Below are positions 3,348 through 35,305 of a stretch of DNA of 64,000 nt, piece after piece; the stretch's first letter is position 1, and each line of letters starts with the position of its first letter. The stretch covers positions 754,801-818,800 of the forward strand of contig MU004184.1 in assembly GCA_010093605.1 (NCBI GenBank), given 5' to 3'. This DNA comes from Lophium mytilinum. Its lineage: Eukaryota. Both the position numbers and the translations under genes were made by a program. The notes beneath the pieces are model-generated. The model saw only the letters and a program-made list of their open reading frames with translations, did not search any database and was not told the DNA's origin.

Positions 3348-6300
3348 ATGGCCTCCACGGCCTCCGTGGGCTCGCAGTCCAACGGAGAGCCGTCCTCTCC
3401 CTTCGAGAGCCCGACTTTCGAGAAAGACGTCTCTATTCACGTCAGCGAGACCATTGGGGCCGCGTCCATATCCCCAAGCGGGCGGGATGTGGTGTTAGCT
3501 TCGTGAGTCGCATGGCCTCTCATCAAGAAGTATGAAGCGTCACTAACCTCACATAGGCGCAACGGCCTCAACATAATTGACCTTGACAACCCCTACTCGC
3601 CGCCCCTCCACATAGCCAACCGCTCGCAGTGGGACGTCGCGGACGTGCAATGGTCTCCCTTTGCAGATCGAGCGTCCTGGATCGCCAGTACTTCTAACCA
3701 GAAAGCGCTGATATACAACCTCGATCTCCTGGGCAAGACACCGCGCGCGCCTATTCAATATACCCTACATGCACACACACGCGCCATTACGGACATTAAT
3801 TTCTCAGCCCACCATCCTGATGAACTGGCAACCTGCGCCGTGGATAGCTTCGTGCACTGTTGGGATCTTCGTCAGCCAGGAACACCTGCTTTGACGTTCA
3901 ATTCTGTGGTGAAGTTTGCCAAACCTTTTGCCATATTCGCGGACTGGGATGCAGGGGCAACCCAGGTCAAATGGAACCGTCAAGATCCACACATTATTGC
4001 ATCTTCGCATGATCGATATCTACGTATCTGGGACCGTAGGAATGGGGCACTTCCGTTGAAGACTATCACAGCACATTCAACCAAAATCTACGGCATCGAC
4101 TGGAACCGAACACGATCTACAGGCATCCTTACCTGCTCTTTGGATAAGACTATCAAGTTGTGGGACTACTCAAAGGGAGACAACCTTGATCTAGATGACT
4201 CCCATGCAGAGCGCATTTTCAGAACTCCGTATCCAGTATGGCGAGCGCGCCACACGCCATTCGGATGGGGCGTGCTTGCTATGCCACAGCGCGGGAACTA
4301 TGACCTACATCTTTACGATCGTCGCCTCAGTGCGGGAATGAAGAAGAACGCTGTCGTTCCGCCTACGCACTCGTTTGAAGGCCATTCGGACTGCGTCAAG
4401 GAATTCTTGTGGCGCTCGCGTGGCTCAATAGAGGACGGCATCGATAATCGTGACTTTCAACTGGTCTCGTGGGGCACTGATCGGTATCTACATCTTCACA
4501 AGATGAATTCGGACATTCTGAAAACTGTTGGATTCGAAAAAGGAAAAGAAGTGTTCAAAAAGCCTTACCTTACTCGAGTTGGTGCTGCCTATCTGACATA
4601 TAGGGACGGGCCGCCTATCAAACCCGACACTAATGTACCTTTGGACAAAGAGCCAGAAAAACTTTCGAGTCAAGCAAAAGGACATTTGACCACACTATTC
4701 CAAACCTCTCAGTCTCAAAAAGACGCACGTACAGCTCCTTTCAAGTCAATGGACCACCCCACAGCAATGGTCCCAGTAGGGATGCGGGGCAAGAATCGCG
4801 CCCGAAAAATCGTGAACACAATCAAATGGATGGAGGGAGTTAAAATAGGCAATCGAGATACAGACACCGCTGCAAAATGGGGAACACGAGGCACCGTAGT
4901 TCCTCCGCCCCACCAATTTACCTGGGACAGTCCTGAGAGTCTTGGCGATGAAATCACGTACGTTGGTGGTAGATACAGAAAAGTCGCGTTCGAAGAAGTA
5001 GATGTAGCCCGCCGCAAAGCTACCGTCTCTCTTTATGGTCCCTGGGGAGTTGACCGAAAAGCCGCTTTCATCCGAATCAGCTTGAAATTCCCCCTAAACT
5101 ATCCTCGAGATTCCGCACCAGACTTAATCATCGAGAAGACAACGGCTGCAATCGCAGATGAGACAATACTCAAGCTTGATTCGGAGATGCATTCAATTGC
5201 CGAGCTGTACCTAAATCGAAAGCGCGGCTCTTTAGAAGCTATCGTCGGATATGCTCTTGGTGAACGTGGCCTCGAGGAAAGCATTGATTTTCTGGAGATC
5301 GAAGAAGATTCTAATGTTCGAGGACTTGATAGAATCGTCGACGATGATAGCTCGAGTGACGAAGAGGACGACGACTTAACAGATCTCAAGGTCGACTTTG
5401 AGGGCGCTGTTGATCTAGAACGTAGTGGCAATGATATCCCCGTCAACATTAAAGCCAATGTCCCCCTTCCAAAGCATTGTGGAGCAATGTGGTCGGAGGA
5501 CGGCCGGCTTGTTTGCTTCTTCCCACCTCCTCCAGAGCCTCGACCCTTATTTTCAGTCTCGGGGCTACGTCCAGACCGATTGGGAAAGAGCTGGAGTATA
5601 TTCGACACGTTTGGCCGACTGAACGCTGGTACATCTGGTCCTGGAACAGCGCCAGGGACCGGCGAGGAAGACCATGCCTCTTTGCATGATTCATGGACTT
5701 CTTCGTCGTCTACAAGCTCTTCTTCAAGTTCTGATGCGGACAATGCGATACAAGGAAGAAGATTTCAGCCGCCAGCCGCATGGAGGAGAGCAACCCTTAA
5801 ATTCCAGAAGTCATCGCAAGTGTCCAGCGCGGGGCAGGGAAACCCCATCCAACCGAAATCCATTGTTTCTATCAAGGAGGTAGAGGAGCATCTTCTGCCT
5901 TGTAAAAAGGTACTGGCCAAAGAATACAAGATCTTTGGTGATGGTCCCACAGTATGCGCGCATAATGCGGATGTAGCAAGGAAACATGGTTTCCAAGACC
6001 TTGCCGAAGTCTGGGACATTTGCAAACTCATTCTTTGCAACGACGTTCCCCTAGAGATATTACCACAGCAGTATAGGCGAGAGCAAGTCTTGGTGCTCGC
6101 TCGACGGTCACTCGTCAAGATCAGACGTAAAGATAGTGGCATTGACCTTGCCTTTGATGATCCTGAAAAGGTTGCGAAACCCAGACTTACCGGCCGAGTC
6201 AAATGGGGTCGTAGTCCGATCGTAACCTTCCTCATACCCGCCTTATTCGACCATTTCGAAGCTCTTGCAGACACGCAGATGCTTGCTATGCTTTCATGTA

Positions 6301-8140
6301 TATTCTCCGAGCCAGCAGCAAATGAAGGCGTGACTAGTGCAATGCAGCGCCTTCGTCAGTCTGATCTTCCCATGTCTATGGAAGCACCGGCCTTTTCCCT
6401 GGACTACTTCTCGTCCGCCGAAGCAGCTTGGAGTTTGTTCAGACGTCCCCAATCCATCCCCGGTACACCTAGTTATCCCCCAACACGCTTTTCTACTCCG
6501 GTCAACTCTTGGGAGAGACTTGACAAACGGTTAGATACTTTCGGTTCTGCCGGCTCGTCAAATGGTCCTTGGGGAAGTGACCATGTACCGTCTGATCCAG
6601 CCACTCCGTACTCCACAGGCCACACCCCTCCTACACTCTCTAGGACGACAAGCACGCACCGCTCTACTGCCAGTGCAACCCAGAGTTACTCAACGTCGCC
6701 AGAGCAGCATCAACAGATAAAGAAGTCTAACTCGAACCTGGCGACGGCACTTGCCACACTCTCGAGGCCTTTTTCCATCACTGCTTCGTCATCGCCGCCA
6801 GCGAACCCCAAGCCACGAGGGGAGGGAGACTTGTCTACATCAGCTCCAACAAGTGGAATTACATGGGGCACCAACACATTCTACAGTAGTAGCAACGCGA
6901 CTAATGCAACAGGTCGCTCTAAACATGGCAAGCGACCTAGCATTTCTCAGCTTGATGGATCTTACCTTTCTCGCCATTCCGAAGAAGATGAAGACCGAAG
7001 CTGGATTGAAGAAGGATCCTCAGAGCCTGCCTTGCCCTCACACGAGATCGAAGGTGATACGACCATCAAGGTAACACTCAAGAATCAAGACCACTTTGAT
7101 GACGAGGGTTGCGTTAGTGCACCTCTTCTCGACCGTTCCAAGGAATGGCTTTATCGACACTACCGCGAGCAATATGCGGAGCAACTTAGTATTTGGAACC
7201 TTATTATGCAACGCGCCGAGATTCTAAAGTTCAACGGCCTCGTATCATACTGGCCAGAGAAGAAGGTAGAAAGACCGTCAACGCAAGAGCCGACCCTTGA
7301 GGTAGGCACCATTCCTCATATTCCAGACCAACAAGCTGCGGTTCAGCGGCCAGGGCCAGATCGTAGGGTCTCAAACGACTCTTTACTCAAGATCTTTTTC
7401 AACTTCCGGCTAGCAAAAGCAAGAATCAGAATTTTCCTACTCTCGAGCATTTCTGTCTTGGTCTCTTCTCACATCCCGTCACTATTCCTCACCCTCCATC
7501 GCTTCTAGCCAAACATCACAATCAGTCCTATTCATATATCCTGATCTATTTTGTAGCTTTCTGCTCTCTCTTGGATCGAAGTGCTAACCTACCACAGGGC
7601 CGCCCTCAATCGCAATCTCTCGAACCCCCACCAGCTCCCTATGGCGCCCGCCGCCCTACCCCTACGAATGACATCCAGAATTTTTCATTCAACCCAGAAG
7701 CACACGAGTTTCTCCCGGGCACACAGACGCCTCTCCAGCTCTCACGACCCCAATCGCCTCATGGTGAGACCGGCGAGCCCTTCCAGGAGTCACTCAGCAT
7801 TGAAGTACCACCCACTCCCACTACTGGACCTCCTACCGACGCCAAAAGCACGAAGCCACTGGTCATCCCAAGTATGTGCGCTGTGTGTTGGATGCGACTG
7901 CAAGGGTTGTTTGTGTTTTGTGGGAGGTGTGGCCATGCGGCGCACAAGGCATGTGTGCCTGATAGCAATAGTGGGACGTTCGGTAGTGACAGTGGGAACT
8001 GCGCGGCTTATTGTGGGTGCGAGTGTGGAGGAGATGAGAAGCTTGAAGAGAAACCAGACGAGTGGTGGAAGGAAGGTGCGAGTGCGCTGAGCCAGAGAGG
8101 AGAAACTCAATCGGAGGACTGGAGGATGAACGTTGGGTGA
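3348..8140 (+). CDS. MTC5: WD40/RWD/RING protein, SEACAT/GATOR2 subunit Mtc5 (Sea3/WDR59)
   Basis: ATG at 3348, short intron at about 3504-3557, WD40 repeats (HTRAITDINF, GATQVKWNR, HSTKIYGIDW), an RWD-like region (FPLNYP), a frame-restoring intron at 7363-7556, and a C-terminal Cys/His zinc finger (CAVC...CGRCGHAAHKAC...CGCEC). Confidence 0.9.
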
Positions 8141-10430
8141 GGCTAATGGAATGGAAGAAGACTTATACCCCGGTTTTCATGGTGTGCTTAAGGCACGCAC
8201 TAAGAACCAATGTAAGATGTATCGCGTTGTAAGTTACCAGTGTACTTTAAAATTTGGGGGGAGCTTCTAGGAGCTATTGGCGCTCTTTGGGGTGCACGTA
8301 GCATAGCGCTTGTAGGCTAGGCTACTCGCTTGCCTGCAAGTAATCATTGGCTTTTCCAAGCCGTGCTGGAGCACTCTTACCACCTGAACTTCGTTGCTCT
8401 TGCTTCCTCCTAGCTGTCAGCTGCTCCCGCGACGAGCCCTCATGATAATTCCTGGGCATATGTAAGAACCTCCGCGGCTTTGGGACTAATCAACTGAGAT
8501 CTTGTCGATCAGCAATGTAGAGTGCACTCTGAACGAGTTATTGACTACTAATAATGCATCCTCCGGGCATAGTAAGTGTAGAAATTCCGCATGGTAAGGT
8601 GCTGACACTCAAATCATCTAACGAGCGAGTTGCTATGCCTAAGATGACATTACTCGTCATCCTGGAAGAGGGACTAGCAGACCCTTCTCAGCACATCTCG
8701 AACACACCGAGTAGCATTCAAGCAACTATTCTTCGCTGAAACAGTGCCGTCGACTCGGTCAGTCATCAGAATCGAAGGGACTTGGCCTCCTGTCAAACGA
8801 TCACTTGACCAGGCCGACACCAGATCGAAACACTTCCGTCTACGACCAACAGCGTACACCGTAGAATCCGGCCGATCCTCCTACAAATTGTCACGGCGCT
8901 ACTTCGCTTCCGTTGTTGTGGGGCTACATGATGACCACGACGTGAAGTTAGGCAAAGTCACGAGTTCAGGAACGCTCAAAGGTCACTGGACTAGTGCGAG
9001 TTCAAACTTCTACTCAAGCCTGTCCTGTTTCACAACTTTATATCTTTCCACAGAATTCGAGCCTCGAGTCCGTTCTCATGTATGAGGGTGTGATCGAGTC
9101 CGGCCATCCATCTGCTTCATAGGCGTGGAAGGCTGATCAACGGGTGATCTGGAGCTCGTAGGAAACATGAGCACCCAAGATCAATGGTGGGAGCGGTTTG
9201 GGAGACACTAGGCGTTTCTAGTGATGATTATTACCAGTCCTATATGAGTATACGCAGCTTCAGAAGGGGACTAGGTAATAACAGGTCTTCGTGACGGATT
9301 TGAACATCCCCCGTGTAAATCAATTGTGAGTATCAATCCTTTTCATATATGAACATCACCAATCTACGAAGTTAGCACCTCCGAACTCCACCTTCTGCCC
9401 CATGAGGTCAACTTTGACAACTTTTTGACCCCCGAAACCACCAAGCAACCCCAGAGTGCTGGACTTGTTGGACAGTCTCCACCCGAATCGCCCCGCCACC
9501 AGCCATTTACTGACTCCCTTAGTGCGTTGAATCCCCACCCTCTCCTCCCTCCACCAGCCCGTGAGGAAGACTAAAGGTGCCTTTTTCCTTCCTGAACAGC
9601 TTGCCCCTTGATGTTGGACATGAGGAGGGGGGCTAGCCAGCTCTTATAGTCGGAATGACATCACCGCACAGGCCACCGGAAGAAAAATCCACCAGGTCCA
9701 GCGGTGAGGCAGCAGTGACGAAAGTGGTGATGAGGAAAGAAACACGTGAGAAACGTCATGAGCTGAGAGGTAATTCGCGATAGAGCGGATTTAGATAGCC
9801 ACGTTGATTGACGGATTTTTGTTTGAGAGCAATGCACTTGTAGCTTATGTAGTTAGGACGGAGAAGATTGGCGAGACACAGCAGAGTAGTTTGAATGATT
9901 AGGTTCGTGCTGTATAAACTCATAAGCATTTCGACCGTAGGTTTCTTCTTCCGACCTGCACAACTCGCTTGACAATCACGTGCAGGTCACATGCCATCGG
10001 AGCAACGTCCGGAGCTCCCGCCCCTTACTCCTCAACGCAGGGTTTCAGGTAAATACTCATCTAAAAATGGACGTTAAAATGACGCCGGTTTGTGGGGTCC
10101 TTTCCCGCCGTGCTAAGAAAATACAACGGGTGTGTAGTAACTGACGAAAAGCGACCCATGCGAGAGAGAACAGAGCTGACCGCAATGCAGATCTAAGGCC
10201 TGCCGTCGTGTCTATTATACGTAAAAAGGCGATGGATTGCTTGCAGAGAGGTGTTTGCTGGTTTCTCGCAGTGCATAGAACCTTCCATGAAGAGACGAAT
10301 ACTATTGAATCTTACCACAGCAATTTGGCCACTTAGCAAAATTATACCAAGTGAAAGGATAGAAGATGGAAAAACATAAAGCCCTTGAAGTGGAGACCAT
10401 GCTTTGAAAGCACGCCTTCCAGTCCAATTT

Positions 10431-12573
10431 TTAGTCCTTGCACGTCTTACCCCACCAAGAGTTTATCGAGCGATCATGATATGAGCTCATCCAATGAATC
10501 CACTCATAGTCATCATCATGATCGTACCTGTAAACAATAATGTACTCTGTTTTACTCGTAGGATCTAGTGCAATAGCCTGCCACTACGTAAGCCCATAAC
10601 ACCTGCAGGATTAGACTACCGGCTTACCAATATGCTTACAGCTTTTTTTTTGGCCTTAAGGAACCGCCAGAGACTCGGATTACTCTTTCAGATCCAGATC
10701 GTAGCCTAAGGACTGATCCGGGGCTGAAGCGTCGCCGAAAGAGATGAAATTAGGAGCCGCCGTATCCGAAGGCTATAGCTATGACTATGGAGCCATCCTT
10801 TTCAACCTTTGCGGTTTTGGCGTAGACTACGCGGGATGCCCAATGCCTAGTACAGCCGTCCCGCCACCGCGTGTAGAAATGTTGCCCGGGACCGAGAGCG
10901 CATAGTTCCAGGTTGTTGAGTCCGTGGGAGTCGATTTTTGCTCCTAGGTACGGATACTCGACGTCGAAATCTACGCTCTGTACTGTCACGACCGTTAGAT
11001 TCTATCTTGTTTCTCTTCAAGCTGTCGGTTGTTCCTTACCCCAAAAGCTGTTATACTTGGCAATCCATACCTGTCTTTCGCCGATGCTGATGGCTTTTAC
11101 GCGCTCTCCCTTCTCGATTGGAATGTTACTGGTTGAGACTCATCAGTACTTCCGCAAACAGTATTCAGACCGCTTTGTACAGGCGGTGCACTTACCTGCT
11201 CCAACGCGATGAGCTGATCAAAGCAAAATATTCCCCCCTCATCGACACGGAATATCGGGGGTCGAAGCCGGTGTTGCTGCTCCGAGATTCCTTCTCCTGT
11301 TCTCGCTCCCGCTCTCGCCGAGCTTCCTTTTCCTGCTTCCGTCTCGCTTGATTCTCCAGCTCGGTTTTCTCCTGCTCAAGCCGCCGTTGTCTGTCTTTGA
11401 TCCGTCTTAACTCTACTTCGTGAGCCGCTTCCTGTTCTTTCATCTGCTTCTCCATGCGGGCGACGCGGTTATCGCGCTCGACTAGGAGGGTCTCCATGGT
11501 CGAGCGCAAGGCGCCCGTGTCGTCCTCCACCTTCTTAATCATGCGCGTGTACCGATCCCGCTCTTCACGCATCATCTCCACCGCCTCATGGTCTTGTTGC
11601 TGGATAGCCGCTTTCATGTTATCTTCCATATCTCGCCGCTCCTTGTCCCACTTCTCCTTCTCCTTGAGCATCTCGCCATTCAGTGCTCGGCCGGCCGATG
11701 TCTGGTCTAGGGTGCGACGCTCATCAACCATTTGTCTCTGTAGATCGGTGGTTACAGGCGCATTGTGGCTGGCCAGCCGGTGAACGATGTCCGTTGCAGA
11801 GGGGTTGGTGTTGTTATGCCGATGGCACGAACTACCTTTCCCCAACATCCAGCCCCAAAATTCTGGCGTGTCGATCAGTTCTTTCTCGCGGGCAACGCCT
11901 TCTTGTTCACTCGGTATTTTGTCCCACATGGTTGTGACGAGGATGACTTTCTTGAGGGCGTCGTCGCCACACAGCTGCTTGAACATGATTAAGTTTTTCC
12001 TCGCCGAGCCTTGCATACGGATGTCGGTGATGCGGTGGAGGTATATAATCCCGTTGAGTAAGATATTGTTTGTGTAATACTCCCCAAGCCATGATGTAAT
12101 CTCACGGAGAACTTCGGTGTCGCTTCGGTTCGTGTCGTCGAAGCCAGGCGTATCGATCAGGTAAACGGTCCGGTCAGGGGACATGTCGTACGCATAGACA
12201 TCAACGACAGATGTGCCTGTTTGTCCTTAGGATCTACGTAGAGCAACAGCTCAAAGAATTTATAGGTACCACTCACACGCGCCTAGTGCATGGCCCACTT
12301 TGACGGCTTTACCGGAACATATTGAGATGAAAGAGCTCTTTCCCGAACCCGTGACACCCATCACAGCGATGAAAACATCATTTAGTCTTTCATTTTGATT
12401 AGACCGCTGTAATAACGACAGAGCAAGTATTCAATGGGCGACTCACCCGGGAGCGCGGCCACCGCGAAGGCTGTTCGACTCTGGCTTACTGTTCCATAGT
12501 ATAGATTCCTCTATTCAGAATTTAGTGATAGTCGCTGAGGTTGACACAATGAAGCCCTACCGCTGGAAGACAT
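10431..12573 (-). pseudogene. AIG1/GIMAP-like P-loop GTPase A with coiled coil and repeated C-terminal domain; 3' part frameshifted
   Basis: Spliced model: MSSS|EESILW...|LNDVFIAVMGVTGSGKSS (G1)...|CTS (G2)...LIDTPGFDDT (G3)...LVTTMWD (G4-like), a long charged coiled coil, then further exons. The reading frame breaks at TAAT 10752-10749 and 10682-10679, but a protein-like frame continues to TAA at 10433-10431. The exact start is inferred. Confidence 0.8.
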
Positions 12574-13318
12574 TCTGCTCGAGCGCGTGTCGTCTTTCTA
12601 GATTGGTTTCCAAAAATTCCACCGGTAGCGCATCGGGTGAGGCTGGTAGCTTTGGAGAAAGGTCAGAGAACGAGGCTCTCCCTAGGTTATCATTCCCCTC
12701 TTTGAAGCTTGCCATGGATGGTAGAGTCATTGCCTTCGTATATGCAGGTATGCCACGCAGGTGTGTTGGCGGTGCTAATCGGTTGGTCGAATGGAGTTTC
12801 AGCCTTGCCGCTGTCACCTGTGAAGCGCCCCAGATAATCTGCAGGAAACGCTCTATCCTACAGCCGCTTGGCGCGAGGACATCGGACGCACGAAGGGGCT
12901 ATACATCCCGCGGGGCAGTCATCCCATGTACATACGATTGGCTCGTTCCTTAAGCCTCTCAACATAAAGCGCCTCCAAGCACAGCCCCTCGGAGGAGCCG
13001 TCTTGTCGCCAAGCTTGGGAGTATAGCGAGGCTCGTTTGTCCCCAATTTCGGCTCCAGGCTGAACGAAGCTCTCTGCTAGATGACTACCTCTCAAGGCAC
13101 TACCTCCGATTCTAGGATATACTACCGTTGGATGAGACCCTTGAGCCCTGCTTCTCTCCAGTACCTAGCACCTAAAGCTCCGTGGCTTCTCAACCCGGGT
13201 GATTGACTCTCTTCTCCGTTTCCTTGACTCGTCACGTAGGTGACGCCTTCGAGATAGCCAAGGCTCAAATAGGAGACCGTCATATCTTTTCTCTCGCCCT
13301 TTTACATTCCAAATCATC

Positions 13319-14886
13319 ATGGACAACATAAATATTGCAGCCGAACGGCTGGCTGCTCACGCTCAACGGATGTCAGCATTTACTGGCCTCACCAAACCTA
13401 GTTCGGGGGATCGATTTTTTCTTGTTGCGGGCGTGACAGGATCGGGCAAAAGCACTTTCGTCGCTCGCTGTACAGGAAAGGATGTTACTGTTGGCCACGG
13501 GCTCTATTCATGTAAGAGGTTCTCGGGCGCCGCCCAATACTGCTTGGTACCTACCTCTTAACCTCTAAAATTGCAACCCAGAGGGAAGGCATCCAAATAA
13601 CATCTGTCTAGGTACTAGCTCAATAGACGTCTTCGACTTTACGTGGAATAGTCGACGAATCCACCTTATCGACACCCCCGGCTTCAATGATACGAATAAC
13701 TCCGACATTAACTCCTGAGGAATACTCGCCACCTACCTCGGTGCTTCGTACGCAAACGGCATGCGAATCCATGGCATAATCATGCTGCATCCCATCTCTG
13801 ACAACCGTATGTCCGGGTCGAGTTTACGCAATATTGAAATGATGAAAGCCATATGCGGATTTACTTATTACGACAACCTCGTTCTCGCCACAACTATGTG
13901 GCCTGACGGACCTAATTATGCCGAGGTAGCAACTCTCGAGAACCGAGAAAGGGAGCTTCTTGCTGATGACAGGCTTTTTGGTGCTCTGGTCGCTGAAGGG
14001 GCGAATGTGTATCGTCACAATGAGAAAGGCCATAGGGACCACTTCGAAGAGACCGCCTCGGCGCGGCGCATTATAACCCATCTCATCCGTCAGTCGGACA
14101 TGCGCGCTCCAGAGGTGCTCCGGCTGCAGAGGGAAATTATCGACCAGGGGAAGAGTCTTGGCGAAACTGCAGCAGGCATTGCCGTGGCCGGGGATCTGTA
14201 TAGAGCTCGCCGAGCCCATGAGCGCCAGCTGCGAGAGATAGAGACCGAGTTGAAGGGGCAGATGGCCAAGGCAGACGCCGCACATGCCACCGAGCTACGG
14301 GAACTCAAGGCGGACGTTGAGAAGCAGCTAAGGAAAGCTAAAGAAGAGAAACGAGCGCTGCAGAAGACGATGCAGGATATGCACGAGGAGGAGGAGAGGG
14401 CGTGGATGAAGAATATCGAAGCGCTGGATAGACGCTTCCGCGACCAGCTTGCGGAGAAGGAAGAGGAGCTGCAAGAGATGGAGGAGTCTCTCCGCGAGAT
14501 ACGCGACGACATGGCTCGACAGGCACAGAAGACCCACCAGCAGCAACTGGCAGTGCGTGAGGCTGTGAAACTGGCCCGACAGTCCCAGAAGGCCCACCAG
14601 CAGCAACTGGCATTGCTTGAGGCTGTGAAACACGAGAAAATTGTCAGAAAAGCTCGAAATGAAGTTTTCCAGGCCCGTAGTGCGTACGAGAAGTTTCATG
14701 GGCAGAGAGACAATATCCTTAATGGCACGGCGAATGGGCTTGCCGCGGGTGCAACAACGGCCATCATTGCAGGTAAGCTAGCTCTCCCAGCTGTATTATC
14801 ATCTCACTCTAGCATCGAAATTAAAGTAACTAATGCGAAGTTATCCTCTAGCGATGGCTGGTGGACTCCTATGTGTGGTGATGTAG
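13319..14886 (+). pseudogene. AIG1/GIMAP-like P-loop GTPase B with coiled coil and C-terminal CaaX; one in-frame TGA
   Basis: Exon 1 (13319-13511) has GVTGSGKST. After intron 13512-13611, exon 2 reads CTS...LIDTPGFNDTNNSDINS*GILATYL with TGA at 13716-13718 in frame with the 13761 ORF. After intron 14773-14851 the last exon gives AMAGGLLCVVM* (TAG 14884-14886). Confidence 0.82.
14511..14630 (+). repeat. 60-bp tandem duplication (2 x 20 aa) in the GTPase B coiled coil
   Basis: MARQAQKTHQQQLAVREAVK followed by LARQSQKAHQQQLALLEAVK; the DNA units 14511-14570 and 14571-14630 align without gaps. Confidence 0.9.
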
Positions 14887-15551
14887 AAGAGTAGTCGAGA
14901 GCGAGGTGCTGCAAGCGGAGCCTTGCAGGAGATGGGGCTATCAAGAGCGGAGGATGCAGTCAGAATGATAAGGAGGAGCTTTTGAGAACAGACTAGAAAG
15001 AGCGGAGTACTAATTTGGGGGTACTGGGAGCGGTACGTCCAAGAAGATGCTTGAAGCTGGAAGGATGGGGAATCGGGATTCAGTTGCGGATGTGCGAAGG
15101 AGCGAGTCGCTAAGAGCCTCGACGAGAGATATACGGCACAGCTGCTGAAGATTGAATAGGCAGTATGGTACATCTCGTTGGTGTTGAGGTACCCAGAGTG
15201 TGTTTGTGTAACTCACGGCATTAGGAAAGGGACCAGGGGGACTCTGTAGATCGCGCTAATCCAGATGCGACTTCATACAGGCAACTCGACCCGTGCTTAT
15301 CTAATCCCGGAATGCCCGACAGAAAAATATACTAAGCCTGAAGAGGCGGACCGCCTAAACTTGAGGGGGACATGGGGAGTTACCTCGAACAACTTTACAT
15401 CCTCAACGTTGTGCGCGTCCTTCTCCAAAAGCGCATGCTCTTGTTCGATTTCGAAACAGGAGAACAAAAGTGGAGCTGAAGAGAAGTAGTCCTGGAGCTA
15501 AATCTGTCGTACGGGATATAGACGGGCCTCCAGGGTCATCGTCAGGGCACA

Positions 15552-17318
15552 ATGAGGAGCTCCAACGGTTGTTGGACTTGCCGGCTCCGACGAAAAAAAT
15601 GCGACGAAAACCAGCCTGTTTGTGACGTCTGCGCTGTACTCTGTGTTACATGTCACAGTTTCAAGGACGCCAGGCCGGAGTGGATGGATGGCGGCGCAAG
15701 ACAGGAAGAGATGGCTGAGCAGCTCAAAAGCGAGGTTAAAGAAAAGGCCCGTCGCCGACGTGGAGAGCGTGCGGTCCATGTTCCTAGCGACCACGTCTTA
15801 AGTGACGAAGCTCCCTCCGTCGAACATGCAGTGCTTCCCCAAAAGCCGCCTCTGGACGTAGCTACTCCGATGTGCGATCTCCTGAGAGCGACTCCTGACA
15901 GTAACAATGGCGGGACGATGCCATCGTCGGACGCATCCACTGTCTGGCTCTATCGTGGGGCTGACTGCACACTTACTCCCAAGGACTCGCGCCAAAACAT
16001 TGCCTTTGGACGGTCTGACACTATTCTCCTTACATTTTACCTGGAACATTTGCTTCCCTTCCTCTTCCCGTTCTACCGCCCCTCTCTCCTTGAAGGCGGA
16101 AGGTCTTGGATCTTCGAGATGATGATAAGCAGCCCTGTAGTTCGACAGGCTACCCTATGCCAGAGCTCCTATTTCTTCTCTCTTGCGAAGGGAACAGCCA
16201 ATCGCGATGCAATTTGGGATGAAGTGCTCACGCAGACTACGAATGCCTTTGGAGTGCTGAGACAGGCCCTACAAGTCATCGATAGCTCAGGCGTCGCAGA
16301 TCATCTGCACGGCGCCGTACGGGTCATGGCAAGCATCATGCAGATGCAGCGTTTCGAGATCGCTGTCTTAAGTTTTCATAACTGGCAGACACACCTCAAT
16401 GCGGCTCTGGTTCTTTTCAAACAACTTCTCGATAGCGCCGTCGAATCGAGAGAGCCTAGTTCAAGCTTCGAGGCTGTGATGAGCCGCCTGGGTCCATCAT
16501 CGTCATTGTCATGGAGCTGGCCTAGCCAAAGTGACCAGGTTCCGAGCGCTGAACAGGCAGCCTTTCGCTTCTCATCCACTCTGGTCATATTGGACGATAC
16601 TATTGCCAGTACGGCACGTCAGGAGCAGCCAAGACTCTACGAGTACCACCGCAGCCTGCTTGGTGGCATCGAAGGCATTGACAACCCCCCTATCAATCTC
16701 GAGGCTGTTGTCGGGCTGAAAAACTGGACCTTGCTACAGATCGGCGAGATTGCCGCGCTTGAAGCATGGAAACGTCGATGTAGAACGGCCGGGAATCTTG
16801 ATGTTGTGGAGCTAGTCCGTCGCGCCACAGCTATCAGGGAGTCCTTGGTAGCTCATCTCATGCGACTCGAAACCGAAACGCCAACAATTCCAACAGGGAA
16901 CATCAACCTGCTTGATATGTTTACACCACCACCTAGCCAATGCTCCTTGGTTTCTCGAGTTTGGGCCCACGCAGCGCTCATTTATCTATCTATTGTTGTG
17001 TCCGGATGGCAGCCCACCAGCGTCGATGTACGTTATCACGTTAGTCGAGTCATCGAGCTGCTAAAACGTCAAAAATCGCCGGCGTTGCTGCGTACAATGG
17101 TGTGGCCGTTCTGCGTTGCAGGCTGCCTTGCGGATCCCGCGCAGGAAGCTCACTTTCGCGAAATGGTCGAAGTTTTACAACCGCCAAGCATCTTCGGCAC
17201 GGTACACAAGGCACTTGAAATCATGGAGGACGTATGGCGTAAGAGGGCCACGGATATCACGGCCCGGGACATTGCTACGTGCTTCAAAGTTCAAGGTGAT
17301 CTGGTGCTGCTTGTATAG
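15552..17318 (+). CDS. Zn(II)2Cys6 transcription factor with Fungal_trans_2-type domain
   Basis: N-terminal GCWTCRLRRKKCDENQPVCDVCAVLCVTC binuclear cluster; C-terminal WPFCVAGC motif; intronless 588-aa ORF. Confidence 0.93.
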   Translation: MRSSNGCWTCRLRRKKCDENQPVCDVCAVLCVTCHSFKDARPEWMDGGARQEEMAEQLKSEVKEKARRRRGERAVHVPSDHVLSDEAPSVEHAVLPQKPPLDVATPMCDLLRATPDSNNGGTMPSSDASTVWLYRGADCTLTPKDSRQNIAFGRSDTILLTFYLEHLLPFLFPFYRPSLLEGGRSWIFEMMISSPVVRQATLCQSSYFFSLAKGTANRDAIWDEVLTQTTNAFGVLRQALQVIDSSGVADHLHGAVRVMASIMQMQRFEIAVLSFHNWQTHLNAALVLFKQLLDSAVESREPSSSFEAVMSRLGPSSSLSWSWPSQSDQVPSAEQAAFRFSSTLVILDDTIASTARQEQPRLYEYHRSLLGGIEGIDNPPINLEAVVGLKNWTLLQIGEIAALEAWKRRCRTAGNLDVVELVRRATAIRESLVAHLMRLETETPTIPTGNINLLDMFTPPPSQCSLVSRVWAHAALIYLSIVVSGWQPTSVDVRYHVSRVIELLKRQKSPALLRTMVWPFCVAGCLADPAQEAHFREMVEVLQPPSIFGTVHKALEIMEDVWRKRATDITARDIATCFKVQGDLVLLV

Positions 17319-17442: not shown

Positions 17443-18198
17443 TCACTTGAATTGGACATAACCCTTGCCTTTAACGAACGTGGCGTGGCTGGGCACAGTT
17501 CCCTCATGGTCCGCCAGCTGCGCAAAAAACTCGGCATGCGCAGCACCGTCAAGCGCCATCCCCTTGAACTTGCCATCTCCATGGCGCTCATCAGCATAAA
17601 AGAATCTAGCGAGGCAGACGTGTTAGAACAATCCACACACAGCGCTTCGTTAAGGTACTCACCGGAACCCCTTGGCTGAGTACAGCACATCGGCAAGGCC
17701 AAGCCAGAAAGACGAAGCGGACTTGCCAATACCTAGATCCAACATCATAGGCATGGGAAGGATGGAGACGTTCGTGATGTTGCCGGTGTATATGAACGTC
17801 TTCTTAGTCTCCTTGGGCAGCGTCTCCCATCCAATGACGGCCTGCTGTGCTGCAACGTAGGGCGAAATAGTGTTGACATTTAGATCCGACGCGACACTCT
17901 CGGCTGAAACCGAGAATACAGAGTCCTTGTCCGGAGGGGGCGTGAGTGCCGCTGCGTTGTAGATGACAACGCTGGGAGCGGCATGGAACTCGGTCTTGAC
18001 GGCGTCGAAGAGTGCTGGGATCGAGTCGGGTTTGGTGAAGTCTGCCTTGAGAGAGAGAAACCCTTCGCCGCTCTTGGTGGCACTTCCACTTCTAGACACA
18101 AGCGCAACCTTATAGCCAGAGCTGGCGAACTTCTCGGCGACGGCGGCCCCAATCCTAGGCCCGGCTCCGAGAATGAGTACAACAGGATTGGCTGCCAT
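17443..18198 (-). CDS. Short-chain dehydrogenase/reductase-like NAD(P)-binding protein
   Basis: Rossmann motif VLILGAGPRIG and VIYNAA. After an intron at about 17660-17608, exon 2 reads FFYADER...GKGYVQFK*. Confidence 0.88.
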
Positions 18199-18468
18199 TT
18201 TGCTATCACGTTCGATGGTAAAGATGGAATTCGATGGGTTTAGGTTGCGAAGAAACTATGATATGGAATATGAGAATGGAGTTTATCTTGGAGCCAACAT
18301 GTCTACTATATATACCAAGCGGAATTTACAACCCTTCGTATCACTTAGTTCAAAATCGGCCGACTTCCAAAGCTTTGAAATCACCATTCTTGGATCTTAC
18401 ACCCTGAGCTGCATGTTCGACAGTTACGCAGGGTAAATGGCGAAGAATAATACGCAACACCAGCGAAA

Positions 18469-18727: not shown

Positions 18728-18896
18728 GAGAACCCTATTGCGGCATCATTCTCAATCCCAACCATGCGCATTTAACATTGGATTCGTCAGCTCGCTATCT
18801 AACTGACTGCAGTCACTGATAATGCCCCATTTCTAAAACGCCGATATTCCTCTTTTTCTTTCTTACTTGTCAGAGAAAAGCTACACATAGCGCGCC

Positions 18897-20047
18897 ATGT
18901 CCTCAGTGCTCTCATCCATCCGTTCAATCATCCGCTCAAGGTACTTTACAACTCTCCTTGTGAGCTTATCCATCCCGCTCGTCTACAACGCTATCCAGTC
19001 GTATACAAGCAGCATCTACCCACCTGCAACCATCATATCTGATCCCTCACAACTCAACAGTTCTGAACGCACCATGTCAACTCCAGCGGCCAACGACAGC
19101 TCTCCCGGACGCATGCCCGTCTACTTCCTCGGAATAGGAGGCCCCAACTCCGTCGAAAACACAGACCACCCTGCCTACGCCAAACTAGCCGCAGTCGGGC
19201 AAGAGATCACAGCGAAAGTCAAACCGAAGGCGGTAGTTGTGTTTTCCGCCCACTGGAGAAGCGGCCCGAACTCTCTCCAGATCAATGCCGCGGAAAAGAC
19301 GGATATAATCTACGACTTCTACGGCTTCCCGCCCCACTACTATGAATACGACTACCCGTACAAGGGAAGCCCCGAGGTTGCCGAGAAGGTGATCGAGAAG
19401 CTAGAAGGCTCCGGCATTCAGGTCGAGAGAGTCAAGCGAGGGCTTGACCATGGTGTATGGGCGGGATTTATCGTTGGTAAGTAATTCCCATGGATTCCTC
19501 TTTAGTGTCTCGTTTGCTGATACATGTATCGAAACAGCGTTTGATCCAAAGAAGAACCCACTGAATGTGCCCATCGTCCAAGTTTCGCTGTACAATAACG
19601 ACGACTCGGATCGACATTACCGCGTGGGGCAGGCGCTGGAGAGTCTGCGAGATGAGGGCATTCTGATCATTGGCGCGGGAATGGCTGTTCACAATCTTCG
19701 TGACTATCGGAACACGTTGTCAACCAAGAAGACTATGCCGTAAGTAAAGCCTGCTAGGAGCATCCAGCTCGACTGTCCGTGCGCTCATGATATCTAGTTA
19801 TGCGTTCAGCTTTGACGAAGCACTGAAAGAGGCTGCTACCGCAAATCCAGAGGAGCGTGAGGCAAAGATGTCCGCTCTGATGCGCCGCAGTGATGCCAGA
19901 GAGGCACATCCGAGCTTGGAGCATATCCTTCCTATTCATATTGCTGCAGGCGCCGCGGGCTCTGATCCTGGTGAACAATTGTGGACATTTCCGGAAGGGA
20001 GTTTGAGTTGGGCGCAGTATCGCTTTGGTGAATTTGCGGCGGCGTGA
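18897..20047 (+). CDS. Extradiol ring-cleavage dioxygenase, LigB/4,5-DOPA-dioxygenase family
   Basis: Motifs VVVFSAHW, IYDFYGFP, RGLDHGVW, IVQVSL, GAGMAVHNL and AHPSLEHILPI; introns at about 19478-19538 and 19740-19797. Confidence 0.92.
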
Positions 20048-20177: not shown

Positions 20178-22140
20178 TCAAAGCTCATCCCCCTCATCAT
20201 CAGCGCCCACTCCTTCACGATCCTCGAACACCATGAATTCTCCGCCATCGTCGCCCATGATACTCCGCCAGACTCCCTTCACCTGGTCGAGGACAGAGTC
20301 GTCCCAAGCAAGATCGAGAGAGGTGGGTGGAAAGACGAGAATGCGTTCATCAGGCGAAGCGGTACGTGCAGAAGCGGCACTTTCTTTGTGTTGTGTGATC
20401 TGAGAAGTCTGCTCATATCGGAGCGACCACAAGACTATGGGTTGTGGCTGGAGGTTTTTGCTACTCAACAAAGCCTGGACGGCTCTCTCAAGTAGCCTCA
20501 CGGCTACATCGCCAGTCATCGCAACGCTTGCGTAGAGCACTCCTAATTATGCGATCAGTAATGTTTCGTCGAGAGATTGAAGATGCATAAATGTGTTTGA
20601 GAGGCCCAGATCAGGTTGTCAGAGATATTATAATCGTCAAGGAAGTTCAGACAATGTAGATAAGTATTCAAGAAATCATTCATCATATAGGCAAGTAGTG
20701 GTAGTGTGTAGCGTAAATGAGAAGGCACTTACTTTGGTTGGGTGGGCACTCCCCAGTGTCGCTTGAGTGTACAAACACATAGACAGGAGGGAGTGTCGGC
20801 TTCGCGTCGTTTTCTTTCCGCGAATTGAGACTTCCGGACGGGAAGAACACCACGGCGCCAGCTGGAATAGGTGCTCCTTCAGCCATGGGAGGGAATAGTG
20901 CCTCAAGCGAAGAAGATACAATCGTGATAGATCTGGAACATAATTTAGGTTCTGCCAGTGGGGTTCCTTCCACTGGTTCGTGCTGAGACGTCTGGAGAGG
21001 TTCCAAATCATCACTCGAGCCTACAATCCAACGTGTCGTTACGGACTCGCCATCTTTGAGAACAACCTTGAGGGGGTCTGGCGTTGTTACTGTTTCGGTT
21101 GTTGCACCATCGGATGGGCGTTCGTCAGTTGCAGGTCCTGTGAGACCATTGCCAAGGACATACACGGCGCCACCTACAGCTCCAGCACGGCATCCCACCT
21201 GACAGAGTTCGGAGAGGCCTCCCCATTTTGGTATGACGGAGCCGAACCCAGGTCCGAGACTTCCGATAGATCGAAGATGTCTCGCAATTCGAGGGAGAGC
21301 AAATTCTGTGGTTGTGTGGTCAGCATCTGATGACGATAACGTCAGAGCTAAGAGCGGCGCGTGTAATGCAGCAGGAACCCTGAATTGCCCAGAGAGGAAT
21401 GCCGAGAACGATGTCTGGCCGTGTCCTTCCCACACTTCGCCTTGCTCTTCATACTCGCCGATAAATCTTAAGAACTTCATGAGAGCCCGCTTGGACTTCA
21501 TGTCTAGATCTTGAGCAGCGAATATGTCTTCTCGTCCATTGGGCACCTTGCGTAATGTTCCCTGGCCAACAGCATTTCCAGTTCGAACCTGCGAGTCTTC
21601 TTCTGCAATGTTTCCAGGCGTATAAACCCACCAAGCCCCAACCGCGAGGAAGTCGATCTGTCGATGGACTTTGGAGGACACGAGGACTGGGAGGATGCGT
21701 GATCGTGTGTAAATTAGCTGGGGCGACAACGACAGACTGTAGGCACGAGAAGACGACAGCTTGGCCGAGTCCGTCTCGGATGCTTCTGGTCGGTGGACGG
21801 ACACGTTTGTGAAGGTAGCGGATGATGAACCATCTATCGAGGTTAGCTAGTGATAAAGGAAATCTCTGCATTGGAAACCAACCTTTTGCTACATTTCTGG
21901 ACCAGTCCTCGGCCTCTTGGAGACTGAAAGCAGCCTCGCTGCCACCATAGTAATTGTTCCTGTCAATGTGCAGAATTTTCTTGCCTGAGCGAGACAATGC
22001 TCTTTCATGAGACGCTGCGTCAGTCAGAAGGTGCAGGAGGGCGGAGGATTCGTAGACAATACGTACGTTGCGAGAAGAGACTGGGGTAAGCCCGTCCCCA
22101 CTATGAGGACGTCCCAGTCTGTGCCGTCCAAAGACTCCAT
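20178..22140 (-). CDS. MRS6: Rab escort protein / Rab geranylgeranyltransferase component A
   Basis: MESLDGTDWDVLIVGTGLPQSLLA, ALSRSGKKILHIDRNNYYGG, KRALMKFL, KWGGLSELCQVGCRAGAVGGAVYVL (GDI/REP family); multi-exon. Confidence 0.9.
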
Positions 22141-22723
22141 GTTGAAAGGTGGAGGCGATGGGTTCGAGGCAGACGGCGGTGGAGTTGGTTGTGGAAATTA
22201 GGTAGAATCTCACTGGCGCGAATGACAAAGCATTTCTTGGCATTGCAGGGACCTTCGAAATTCGAAAGCGAAGAGACTTCCTCTTCTCTTCATCACACAC
22301 GCTGAGAGCAATATCCCTTCCCATGGTTTTTCGCCACAGCAGGGGGGTCTTCAGTGACTGTCTATGTGTGTGAGAGAGTGAGAATCGTCCAGTATCTACT
22401 GCTCTGGATACTTCAGTGTGAAAGAGCGGCTCGCAGCGACGCTACATATCCAACTATCTAATTATTTTGCAGGTGTGGCTGATTGAGTTCACGCAGACCT
22501 TAATGCACCCATTGAAGGTACCATAAGTTGAGGGAGCAAAATTTGTGATCTTCGTGATCTCATTGCTAGTCATTTGCTATGAACGTCGCCAGTATTCACG
22601 ATGCCATCCATCTCCGAAACCCGAACCGCGACCGAGAACTTTCGGTCGGATCTATGCTGCTCTGAACGCTACAAGCCTCGAATACCTTGGTACCCGAGAC
22701 CTTGTCGTTGAATCTGTCTCCGC

Positions 22724-27417: not shown

Positions 27418-27619
27418 TATTACGGACTATAAGAGGTAAGATACGGAGCACGGTATTAAATAAGGAATAGGGTGTATTTATAAAGATAAAGTCGCGTAGA
27501 GATAGAGGTTCTACGCGGCGGAGGCTAAATATAGGCTAGAGGTATAAAACCGCGCTAGCGCACGGGCTTATATAATATAGCCGAGAGCATATAATATATA
27601 TAGAGCTAGATCTATTATA
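27418..27619 (-). repeat. 3' LTR (202 bp)
   Basis: Direct repeat of 35104-35305, next to the PPT; the TG...CA ends appear RIP-converted to TA...TA. Confidence 0.92.
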
Positions 27620-35103: not shown

Positions 35104-35305
35104 TATTATAGACTATAAGAGGTAAGGTATAGAGCATAGTATTAAATAAGAAATAGGGTGTATTTATAAAGATAAAGTTGCGTAGAGGTAGAGGTTCCAC
35201 GCGGCGGAGGCTAAATATAGGCTAGAGGTGTAAAACCGCGCTAGCGCACGGGCTTATATAATATAGCCGAGAGCACGTAATATATATAGAGCTAGATCTA
35301 TTATA
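35104..35305 (-). repeat. 5' LTR (202 bp)
   Basis: Direct repeat of 27418-27619 with about 14 differences by manual count, all transitions. Confidence 0.92.

What the first reader, a model, noticed from the sequence alone, without database searches (positions are those of the whole stretch)
10431..14886. Head-to-head pair of GIMAP/AIG1-like GTPases with complementary C-termini: candidate two-component non-self/defence module
Seen in sequence: two paralogous P-loop GTPase genes diverge from a spacer of about 745 bp (inferred ATGs at 12573 and 13319). They share GVTGSGKS, DTPGF(D/N)DT and TTMW motifs, the same phase-1 intron just before the G2 Cys-Thr, and long coiled coils. Their tails differ: A ends in an internally repeated, aromatic/beta-rich domain of about 200 aa; B ends in a Gly/Ala-rich hydrophobic stretch plus CaaX. 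The pair sits in an accessory block between the core genes MTC5 and MRS6, and both partners carry lesions. Established: GIMAP/IAN and GBP GTPases act in animal and plant immunity, some GBPs are prenylated, and fungal allorecognition loci are often tightly linked gene pairs. Inference: A may be a sensor/adaptor and B a membrane-anchored partner in a hetero-oligomer. Joint decay would fit a coupled system. I know of no described fungal system with this architecture.
Basis: partly seen in the sequence, partly recalled or inferred. Interest (0 to 1): 0.8.

Follow-up and report, generated by a model that had tools for sequence, protein, structure and literature searches.

The report
Conserved fungal GIMAP-like GTPase gene pair
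Two neighbouring, related GTPase genes (one with a propeller-like tail, one with a lipid-anchor tail) recur side by side in many filamentous fungi, which points to an undescribed two-protein module, but both copies in this genome are broken.

Summary
Window 10431-14886 (Lophium mytilinum) holds two divergently transcribed paralogous GTPase genes, 745 bp apart.

Gene A has a G domain, a coiled coil and a roughly 230-aa tail. Gene B has a G domain, a coiled coil, a Gly/Ala-rich hydrophobic end and CVVM.

Both are damaged. B has an in-frame TGA. A has two frameshifts that cut off its last repeat. A spliced RNA contig carries the same lesions.

New here:
- A-type and B-type genes are neighbours in many Pezizomycotina. 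There are 12 pairs with consecutive locus tags, and 40 of 86 B rows have a visible A partner.
- Partner A and partner B each form one clade, and the two clades have matching branching.
- The CaaX end C-x-[VIL]-M is conserved in B (35 of 86 rows).
- B has lost the acidic G4 residue.
- The G-domain model is closest to Toc34/33 and GIMAPs.
- The A tail folds confidently into five strand-helix repeats, propeller-like, with no Pfam family and no close solved relative.

Most likely this is a soluble plus membrane-anchored GTPase module, decaying in this genome. Binding, head-to-head orientation in other genomes and a defence role remain untested.

The parts
10431..12573 (-). Gene A (annotated product P0001, 509 aa). 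The G domain is Toc/GIMAP-like, followed by a coiled coil and a C-terminal five-repeat propeller-like domain. RNA-supported exons: 12561-12573, 12447-12510, 12276-12386, 11196-12215, 11040-11128, 10627-10982, and 10576 downwards. The ancestral stop is at 10431-10433.
   Evidence: P0001 is 100% identical; six GT..AG joints on the minus strand in contig X3..
12335..12358 (-). P-loop of A (GVTGSGKS).
   Evidence: Read.
10678..10753 (-). Lesion zone of A. There are two frame changes and a premature TAA at 10750-10752. This cuts off the last ~95 aa (the final repeat) of the tail domain. The last intron (10577-10626) lies 124 nt downstream of the premature stop.
   Evidence: frame 1 runs to 10753, frame 3 covers 10678-10440 and matches the C-termini of P0276, P0278 and P0018..
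10434..11260 (-). Coding region of the A tail domain (approximate start). It includes the out-of-frame remnant of the last repeat at 10434-10576.
   Evidence: alignment, model.
12574..13318 (.). Divergent spacer of 745 bp between the two start codons. It is presumed to be a shared promoter region.
   Evidence: The RNA-derived contig runs through it without a break. No promoter test was done.
13319..14886 (+). Gene B, 462 codons. Exons: 13319-13511, 13612-14772, 14852-14886. It has a G domain, a coiled coil, a hydrophobic Gly/Ala-rich end and a CaaX box.
   Evidence: the spliced reading is collinear with homologues; tblastn..
13430..13453 (+). P-loop of B (GVTGSGKS).
   Evidence: Read.
13716..13718 (+). 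In-frame TGA in B, 34 codons after the shared intron, at a position where homologues have Leu. Everything from switch II onwards is lost.
   Evidence: It is identical in DNA and RNA-derived contigs.
14512..14631 (+). In-frame 60-nt tandem duplication (2.0 copies, 90% matches) in the coiled coil of B. It is absent from the aligned homologues.
   Evidence: an insertion in the window row only.
14721..14883 (+). Hydrophobic Gly/Ala-rich C-terminal segment of B, interrupted by intron 14773-14851. It ends in the CaaX box CVVM (14872-14883).
   Evidence: conservation of C-x-[VIL]-M; hydropathy.

Best explanation
The locus is one copy of a conserved two-gene module of Pezizomycotina, and here it is decaying. 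The module consists of two anciently duplicated GTPases of the Toc/GIMAP(AIG1)/septin clade.

Partner A is soluble. It has an intact G1-G4, then a coiled coil, then a family-specific five-repeat propeller-like domain that probably binds a ligand or protein.

Partner B has the same G-domain/coiled-coil core. It has lost the acidic G4 residue. It ends in a Gly/Ala-rich hydrophobic segment plus a conserved CaaX box (C-x-V-M), so it is probably farnesylated and sits on the cytosolic face of a membrane.

Inferred mechanism, not shown: A is recruited to, or regulated at, the membrane by nucleotide-dependent G-domain pairing and/or coiled-coil pairing with B. Soluble GIMAP7 with anchored GIMAP2, and Toc159 with Toc33/34, work this way (recalled).

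In this Lophium genome B is a pseudogene because of a nonsense codon. A is still transcribed and correctly spliced but encodes a protein without its last repeat. The module is therefore most likely inactive here. Its cellular role is unknown. An accessory, conflict-type role is possible but unproven.
For: Linkage. Of the 86 B-type rows P0121-P0206, 40 have an A-type partner among the 240 A rows listed:
- 12 have consecutive locus tags. Examples are G7Z17_g10241/40, NEMBOFW57_007801/2, NW762_001512/3, AK830_g256/255, N7471_007799/8 and FTOL_09442/1.
- 2 are 2 and 5 tags apart.
- 14 named and 11 unnamed pairs share organism and/or contig length. Six of the pairs lie on contigs of 10 kb or less.
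- One is the window itself.
The taxa span Eurotiomycetes, Sordariomycetes, Dothideomycetes and Leotiomycetes.

Co-inheritance. In a 76-row tree the 29 B partners form one clade (SH-aLRT 99). The 29 A partners form one clade (93; 28 of them at 99). The two subtrees share 9 of 26 splits, against a shuffled mean of 0.17 and a maximum of 3 in 2000. Patristic r is 0.73.

Fixed specialisation:
- B rows end C-x-[VIL]-M in 35 of 86. The others end in intron read-through or are cut.
- The last 23 aa have a mean Kyte-Doolittle score of 1.63 over 36 rows.
- After the 'MW' of the G4-equivalent TTMW motif, the A family has D in 166 and E in 29 of 201 rows. B has P in 62 and S in 8 of 76, and no D or E.
- The tail motif occurs in 39 of 235 A rows and 0 of 86 B rows.

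Fold:
- The G-domain model has pLDDT 88.9. Its best Foldseek matches are Toc34 (E 2.4e-10, TMq 0.60), GIMAP7 (2.6e-10), Toc33, GIMAP2/1/5, then septins.
- The tail model has pLDDT 93.8 and pTM 0.90.
- The tail finds 58 hits among 1.84 billion representatives. All are C-terminal in ~500-690 aa proteins or are fragments. Six of the 15 longer hits scanned carry MMR_HSR1 and none carries another domain.

Lesions and expression.
Against: - No test of physical interaction succeeded.
- The orientation of the pair in other genomes could not be read, so a conserved shared promoter is not shown.
- For 46 of 86 B rows no partner is visible. Only 240 of 1287 A-family hits were listed, so this is unknown rather than absent.
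- A-type genes with the tail also occur in species with no B row, for example P0018, P0023 and P0014. A may therefore act without B.
- Matching trees are expected for any two vertically inherited genes of the same genomes. They show co-inheritance, not interaction.
- Paralogues born by tandem duplication can stay adjacent without functional coupling.
- Prenylation and membrane binding are inferred from sequence only.
- In the RNA-derived contig the two B introns are not spliced out, so productive B expression here is doubtful.
Confidence: 0.7

Rival explanations
1. Non-self recognition or cell-death module. The propeller of A senses a foreign or allelic ligand. GTP-dependent assembly with B then drives the farnesylated, small-xxx-small ('glycine-zipper-like') end of B to oligomerise in a membrane and damage it. 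This would be a GTPase-based analogue of NLR or GBP systems. It is a special case of the best explanation.
For: - Close paralogues of the same G-domain/coiled-coil core carry C-terminal WD40, ankyrin, SH3, kinase or HET domains, as fungal NLR-like proteins do (precomputed Pfam columns, e.g. P0331, P0318, P0350, P0354, P0382).
- Distribution is patchy and disagrees with the species tree. Lophium falls among Aspergillus in both subtrees, and Penicillium falls in two places.
- Both genes are broken here.
- The B end is rich in small-xxx-small motifs.
- AIG-type GTPases are effectors in bacterial conflict systems (PMC7159879, passages).
Against: - No polymorphism, presence/absence or selection data were available.
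- Neither A nor B has a known death or toxin domain.
- The tail has no proven ligand. Its best structural match, a fungal tectonin lectin at Z 7.7, is within the range the tool calls common.
- One genome with two broken genes is weak evidence for coupled decay.
Confidence: 0.22
2. Organelle or membrane housekeeping scaffold. The pair forms a GTP-regulated coat or tether on an internal membrane (ER, lipid droplets, peroxisomes), as proposed for vertebrate GIMAPs, and has nothing to do with non-self recognition.
For: - The nearest folds are Toc34/33 and GIMAPs, which are membrane-anchored and dimerise.
- GIMAP/AIG1-like GTPases are described as scaffolds on intracellular membranes (PMC3417536, passages).
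- B has a conserved anchor.
Against: - The module is absent from many fungi and is broken in this genome, so it is dispensable.
- The tree disagrees with the species tree.
- Paralogues carry variable repeat or HET domains, which is unusual for housekeeping machinery.
Confidence: 0.25
3. Adjacency without coupling. A and B are simply old tandem duplicates that have not yet been separated, and each works alone.
For: - They are paralogues with a shared intron position.
- A-type genes seem to occur without B in some species.
- No interaction evidence exists.
Against: - Adjacency persists across at least four classes of Pezizomycotina, with 12 consecutive-tag pairs.
- This holds even though B branched off before the A/WD40/SH3/HET radiation in the midpoint-rooted tree.
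- The two partners have complementary, fixed differences in anchor, tail and G4.
Confidence: 0.12

Closest known systems
Vertebrate GIMAP/IAN GTPases, in particular anchored GIMAP2 with soluble GIMAP7 (partly recalled: Schwefel et al. 2010 and 2013, seen only as reference-list entries)
   Same: - The G-domain fold is shared: GIMAP7 E 2.6e-10; GIMAP2, 1 and 5 are also matched.
- There are helical extensions after the G domain.
- One partner has a C-terminal hydrophobic anchor and one is soluble.
- The genes are clustered paralogues.
   Different: - Sequence similarity is marginal. Pfam AIG1 is below its cut-off for the window's A (25.3 against 27). PDB profile hits are only E 1e-4 to 1e-3, over G1-G3.
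- The coiled coil is long (~150 aa).
- A carries a propeller-like domain unknown in GIMAPs.
- B has a CaaX box and lacks the G4 Asp.
- The host is a fungus, where GIMAPs are described as lacking as far as known (PMC7053062, passage).
Chloroplast Toc34/Toc33 with Toc159
   Same: - It is the best structural match of the G domain: 1h65_A, E 2.4e-10, TMq 0.60.
- It is a tail-anchored GTPase that pairs with a larger paralogous GTPase (recalled).
- An arginine finger at the dimer interface is noted for this clade (PMC10996617, passage).
   Different: - There is no plastid context and no A- or M-domains.
- The fungal proteins have coiled coils, a CaaX box and a propeller-like tail.
Farnesylated guanylate-binding proteins (GBP1/2/5) (recalled)
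   Same: It is a GTPase with a long helical region and a C-terminal CaaX box. Nucleotide-driven assembly on membranes is a plausible analogy for B.
   Different: GBPs are dynamin-like large GTPases. The fungal G domain matches Toc/GIMAP first, and Pfam Dynamin_N hits are only weak.
Fungal NLR-like (STAND) proteins and het loci
   Same: - Paralogues of this core carry WD40, ankyrin or HET domains.
- The genes are linked as a pair and distribution is patchy.
   Different: - The nucleotide-binding domain is a TRAFAC GTPase, not NACHT or NB-ARC.
- A Sordariales survey excluded an orthogroup with MMR_HSR1/AIG1/Septin annotations from its NLR set (PMC12258605, passage).
- Neither A nor B has a HET domain.
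Beta-propeller lectins such as Laccaria tectonin 2 and five-bladed GH43-type propellers
   Same: - The tail model aligns best to 5fsb_A: Z 7.7, rmsd 4.7, 157 of 238 residues. It then aligns to GH43 propellers at Z 6.5-7.2.
- The tail has five repeats.
   Different: - No chain reaches Z 8, and Foldseek finds nothing at E <= 0.001.
- The blades have three strands plus a helix.
- There is no Pfam Tectonin hit in 33 members.
- The Atlas tectonin lead scores only 0.78.

Membership tests
AIG1/GIMAP family (Pfam PF04548) | Match to the AIG1 profile at or above its curated cut-off (27 bits) | tested here: inconclusive
   Window A (P0001) scores 25.3 bits, below the cut-off, while MMR_HSR1 at 30.4 passes its cut-off of 21.9. 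Three of 15 tail-bearing relatives pass AIG1: P0224 28.8, P0227 29.4, P0232 28.9. The B relatives P0124, P0135 and P0159 score 24.7, 15.5 and 16.7, all below.
AIG1/GIMAP family (Pfam PF04548) | G-domain fold of the Toc/GIMAP/septin clade | tested here: met
   The Foldseek top rows are Toc34/33 and GIMAP7/2/1/5, at E 2.4e-10 to 2e-7 and TMq 0.50-0.63, followed by septins. The model has pLDDT 88.9.
AIG1/GIMAP family (Pfam PF04548) | Canonical G1, G3 and G4 motifs | tested here: inconclusive
   G1 (GxxxxGKS) and G3 (DTPG) are present in both genes. The G4-equivalent is TTMW[D/E] in 195 of 201 A-family rows. No B row has D or E there (0 of 76). Equating TTMWD with G4 rests on its place after strand 146-151 of the model.
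AIG1/GIMAP family (Pfam PF04548) | GIMAP 'conserved box' between G3 and G4 (recalled feature) | not tested
   A conserved D-x-R-M-x-G-S motif lies there. It was not aligned residue by residue to GIMAP structures.
CaaX-prenylated proteins | C-terminal Cys-aliphatic-aliphatic-X, conserved among orthologues | tested here: met
   The window's spliced B ends in CVVM. Thirty-five of 86 B rows end C-x-[VIL]-M and one ends CTLL. The remaining rows end in intron read-through or are truncated, so they are not comparable.
CaaX-prenylated proteins | Actual farnesylation and membrane attachment | not testable with these tools
   This needs biochemistry or localisation of an intact orthologue.
Beta-propeller / tectonin-like lectins | Clear structural or profile match to a propeller family | tested here: inconclusive
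   VIA gives a best Z of 7.7 (tectonin 2) and no chain at Z >= 8. Foldseek has no row at E <= 0.001. Pfam finds no family on the tail in 33 members.
Fungal het / allorecognition loci | HET or another known death domain in the pair | tested here: not met
   Pfam finds no such domain in A, B or their full-length relatives. A HET domain occurs only in a distant paralogue, P0382.
Fungal het / allorecognition loci | Allelic polymorphism under balancing selection; incompatibility on co-expression | not testable with these tools
   No population data or fungal genomes were reachable.
NLR / STAND proteins | NACHT or NB-ARC nucleotide-binding domain | tested here: not met
   There are only weak sub-threshold nSTAND P-loop hits. 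The fold is a TRAFAC GTPase.

The most novel reading that the evidence does not exclude
Filamentous fungi possess a GTPase-based, NLR-independent two-component innate-immunity or cell-death system. A propeller-bearing GIMAP-like sensor GTPase, on binding a non-self ligand, assembles with its farnesylated paralogue. The paralogue's glycine-zipper-like end then permeabilises a membrane. This would be a fungal counterpart of the animal GIMAP/GBP/IRG and plant AIG1 immune GTPases, inherited and lost as a linked pair.
Probability: 0.2. Interest if true: 0.85.

Novelty: new variant of a known kind. Interest (0 to 1): 0.62.

Why it matters
GIMAP/AIG1-type GTPases are tied to immunity in animals and plants. 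In the literature I could search they are described as lacking in fungi as far as known (PMC7053062, passage).

This work shows a large Pezizomycotina family with that G-domain fold. Within it there is a sub-family organised as a conserved gene pair with a clear division of labour. One partner carries a new propeller-like domain. The other carries a lipid anchor and a degenerate G4.

That gives a concrete, testable two-protein system for asking how paraseptin GTPases pair, and whether fungi use GTPase-centred immune or death modules besides NLRs. It also flags about 230 residues of confidently folding sequence with no named family.

For this window alone the biological weight is lower, because both genes are broken.

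Tried and rejected
- Own-genome search: no genome is held.
- Metagenome scan for B relatives with flanks. It returned 2 loci. L001 has B at the very start of a 6.2-kb contig with no A downstream. L002 is a 1.5-kb fragment. Neither informs orientation.
- Complex prediction of an intact A/B pair. The job was not folded, so there is no verdict.
- Sequencing runs. No holder is listed as RNA. One run guessed to be RNA proved RNA-derived by its six splice joints.
- Orientation from a 3,918-nt JGI contig that seems to hold both P0310 and P0168. I first read the 'V' start of P0310 as a contig-edge cut, which would exclude head-to-head. I rejected this because many JGI rows start with V or L at internal positions on long contigs.
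- Orientation from other short contigs: the gene calls are prokaryote-style and uninformative.
- PDB sequence searches: only weak G1-G3 matches.
- Pfam on the tail: nothing.
- Tectonin lead from the Atlas (0.78) and VIA (Z 7.7): kept only as a lead.
- RIP as the cause of the lesions: rejected. The pair region has normal indices, TpA/ApT 0.79 and (CpA+TpG)/(ApC+GpT) 1.21.
- An intron that skips the TGA in B: rejected. Homologues are collinear there and the RNA-derived contig is unspliced there.
- Earlier findings of the scan: nothing.
- Literature. Three searches found nothing on this family: 0 papers; 0 papers; 7 papers hold the terms, 5 listed. Of the papers I read passages of three. One search was badly designed and uninformative. 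Subscription journals are not covered.


Full report
**What is there**

The window comes from Lophium mytilinum. The main exon of gene A is 100% identical to an annotated 509-aa 'P-loop NTPase' of that species (P0001).

Gene A lies on the minus strand, with its ATG at 12573. A Logan contig of one public run (X3) is identical to the window over 10300-15000. It skips six stretches with GT..AG ends on the minus strand: 12511-12560, 12387-12446, 12216-12275, 11129-11195, 10983-11039 and 10577-10626. A is therefore transcribed and spliced into seven exons, and the first six agree with P0001.

Gene B lies on the plus strand. From the sequence and from collinearity with homologues its exons are 13319-13511, 13612-14772 and 14852-14886.

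The spacer between the start codons is 745 bp. A tblastn of family members against the whole window finds only these two loci.

Both genes have GVTGSGKS and DTPGF(D/N)DT. A has TTMWD and B has TTMWP. Both have a phase-1 intron inside the Cys codon of the C-T dipeptide that follows the P-loop exon. An intact A/B pair of one Aspergillus genome is 34% identical over 369 residues.

B ends, after splicing, in a Gly/Ala-rich hydrophobic stretch and CVVM.

A continues after the charged helical region into a repeat-rich tail.

**Lesions**

B carries TGA at 13716-13718, where all aligned homologues have Leu. The rest of its frame is open. It also has a private in-frame 60-nt tandem duplication at 14512-14631.

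In A, the annotated frame stops at TAA 10750-10752. When the RNA-supported mRNA is compared with full-length relatives, frame 1 matches up to 10753. Frame 3 matches their last ~60 residues from 10678 to 10440. The ~26 residues in between are partly recognisable in the third frame. Two frame changes within ~75 nt therefore remove the last repeat.

The final intron is still spliced, and it lies 124 nt beyond the premature stop.

Two DNA runs and the RNA-derived contig show no difference from the window, so these are not assembly errors. The DNA runs may be the assembly's own source, and the RNA is probably from the same strain.

The region has no RIP signature, unlike a strongly RIP-like AT-rich block at about 26.0-36.7 kb.

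In the RNA-derived contig the stretch 12561-15000 is unbroken, so the two B introns are not removed there. A contig spanning two genes proves no single transcript, so I only note it.

**Family**

Pfam gives MMR_HSR1 above its cut-off and AIG1 just below it for A (30.4 and 25.3 bits). AIG1 passes in 3 of 15 tail-bearing relatives.

PDB sequence searches reach GIMAP4/7, Toc33 and septin only at E 1e-4 to 1e-3, over G1-G3.

An AF2 model of the A-type G domain was built from a 60-row alignment (pLDDT 88.9). It matches Toc34/Toc33 and GIMAP7, 2, 1 and 5 first (E 2.4e-10 to 2e-7, TMq 0.50-0.63), then septins. The domain therefore belongs structurally to the Toc/GIMAP/septin clade. Calling it a Pfam AIG1 member is borderline.

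**The A tail**

The 238-aa tail of a full-length relative (P0018) finds only 58 representatives at E <= 0.001 among 1.84 billion. In every case the match is at the C-terminus of ~500-690-aa proteins or in short fragments. Of the 15 longer hits scanned, 6 have MMR_HSR1 and none has another domain. Pfam sees nothing on the tail.

AF2 folds it with pLDDT 93.8 and pTM 0.90 into five units of three strands plus a helix.

Foldseek has no PDB match at E <= 0.001, and its weak rows are beta-propellers. VIA-align gives tectonin 2 of Laccaria at Z 7.7 (rmsd 4.7, 157 residues aligned). Five-bladed GH43 propellers follow at Z 6.5-7.2, and nothing reaches Z 8. The tool calls that range common.

The ESM Atlas returns unnamed, mostly ascomycete clusters and a tectonin lead at 0.78.

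I call it a propeller-like domain without a named family.

**The key new result: conserved linkage**

Three searches listed 120 near-length A hits (of 1110), 120 longer A hits (of 177) and all 101 B hits. I treat rows P0121-P0206 as B-type, which is 86 rows.

Twelve species have A and B with consecutive locus tags:
- Cylindrodendrum hubeiense
- Staphylotrichum longicolle
- Fusarium torreyae
- Xylariales sp.
- Fusarium sp. DS 682
- Neonectria ditissima
- F. decemcellulare
- F. sarcochroum
- Fusarium sp. AF-6
- Penicillium samsonianum
- P. cf. griseofulvum
- F. torulosum

Two more are 2 and 5 tags apart (P. bovifimosum, Beauveria). Fourteen named and eleven unnamed pairs share organism and/or contig length. 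Six of all pairs sit on contigs of 10 kb or less.

With the window itself, 40 of 86 B rows have a visible partner. The other 46 are undetermined, because only 240 of 1287 A-family hits were listed and clusters are collapsed at 90% identity.

**Tree**

The tree has 76 rows and 400 columns. It was built with IQ-TREE quick under LG+G4, with SH-aLRT support only. The rows are 29 pairs plus 18 other family members.

The 29 B partners form one clade (99). The 29 A partners form one clade (93; 28 of them at 99). WD40-, SH3-, kinase- and HET-bearing paralogues sit nearer to A than B does.

The A and B subtrees share 9 of 26 splits, against a shuffled mean of 0.17 and a maximum of 3 in 2000. Both place Lophium next to Aspergillus and split Penicillium in two.

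This shows that the pair is inherited, and perhaps moved, as a unit. It does not show interaction, since kin share history.

**Fixed differences**

- B ends C-x-[VIL]-M in 35 of 86 rows, plus one CTLL. The others read through the last intron or are cut.
- B's last 23 residues average 1.63 on the Kyte-Doolittle scale and are rich in small-xxx-small spacings.
- After TTMW, the A family has D or E in 195 of 201 rows. B has none in 76 rows, mostly P.

B thus keeps the P-loop and DTPG but has lost the residue that normally reads guanine.

**Mechanism**

Shown: paralogy, linkage, co-inheritance, the fold, the conserved CaaX and the degenerate G4.

Inferred: B is farnesylated and membrane-bound. A and B pair through G domains and/or coiled coils, as GIMAP7 does with GIMAP2 and Toc159 with Toc33 (recalled). 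The propeller binds something.

The complex prediction was not folded.

A defence or allorecognition role is possible. The family's WD40, ankyrin and HET paralogues, the patchy phylogeny and the decay here all point that way. There are no population or functional data.

**Literature**

I found no description of this family.
- GIMAPs are said to be lacking in fungi such as yeast (PMC7053062, passage).
- A Sordariales NLR survey met an orthogroup annotated MMR_HSR1/RsgA/Septin/AIG1/Dynamin_N and excluded it (PMC12258605, passage).
- AIG-type GTPases serve as effectors in bacterial conflict systems (PMC7159879, passages).
- Searches returned nothing. One search returned nothing on this family.

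**Verdict**

This is a real and well-described observation. The 'two-component module' reading is supported at the level of conserved linkage and complementary architecture. It is untested for binding, for orientation in other genomes and for function. In this genome the module is a relic.

Noticed in passing
window 26001-36700: An AT-rich block of ~10.7 kb (26-33% GC) with strong RIP-type dinucleotide bias. TpA/ApT is 1.85 and (CpA+TpG)/(ApC+GpT) is 0.15. The flanks are at ~51% GC with normal indices. It is probably a RIP-degraded repeat or transposon island.
   Followed up: partly
window 15522-17315 (+), 17662-18255 (-), 18891-19481 (+): Three genes lie next to the pair. They are a Zn2Cys6 / Fungal_trans_2 transcription factor, a short-chain dehydrogenase fragment and a LigB-type extradiol dioxygenase fragment. 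Together they look like a small metabolic cluster between the GTPase pair and the GDI-family (MRS6-like) gene.
   Followed up: no
window 12561-15000: The RNA-derived contig X3 runs unbroken from the first exon of A through the spacer and all of gene B. The two B introns are retained, while all six A introns are removed. This could mean antisense or read-through transcription over B, or an unspliced B transcript.
   Followed up: no
proteins P0306, P0316-P0320, P0331, P0339, P0350, P0354, P0382: The same G-domain/coiled-coil core is fused in other fungi to WD40 propellers, SH3, ankyrin repeats, a protein kinase or a HET domain. This is a modular family resembling NLR architectures but built on a GTPase.
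   Followed up: partly
proteins P0310 and P0168 (a JGI contig of 3,918 nt): Here both A and B are called as continuous ORFs without the shared G2 intron. B retains an in-frame insert where the last intron lies. This is either an intron-poor lineage or a transcript-derived contig.
   Followed up: no
window 3507-8137 (+) and 20686-22441 (-): The ORFs have WD40 plus a C-terminal RING (zf-RING_16), and GDI-family domains.
   Followed up: partly
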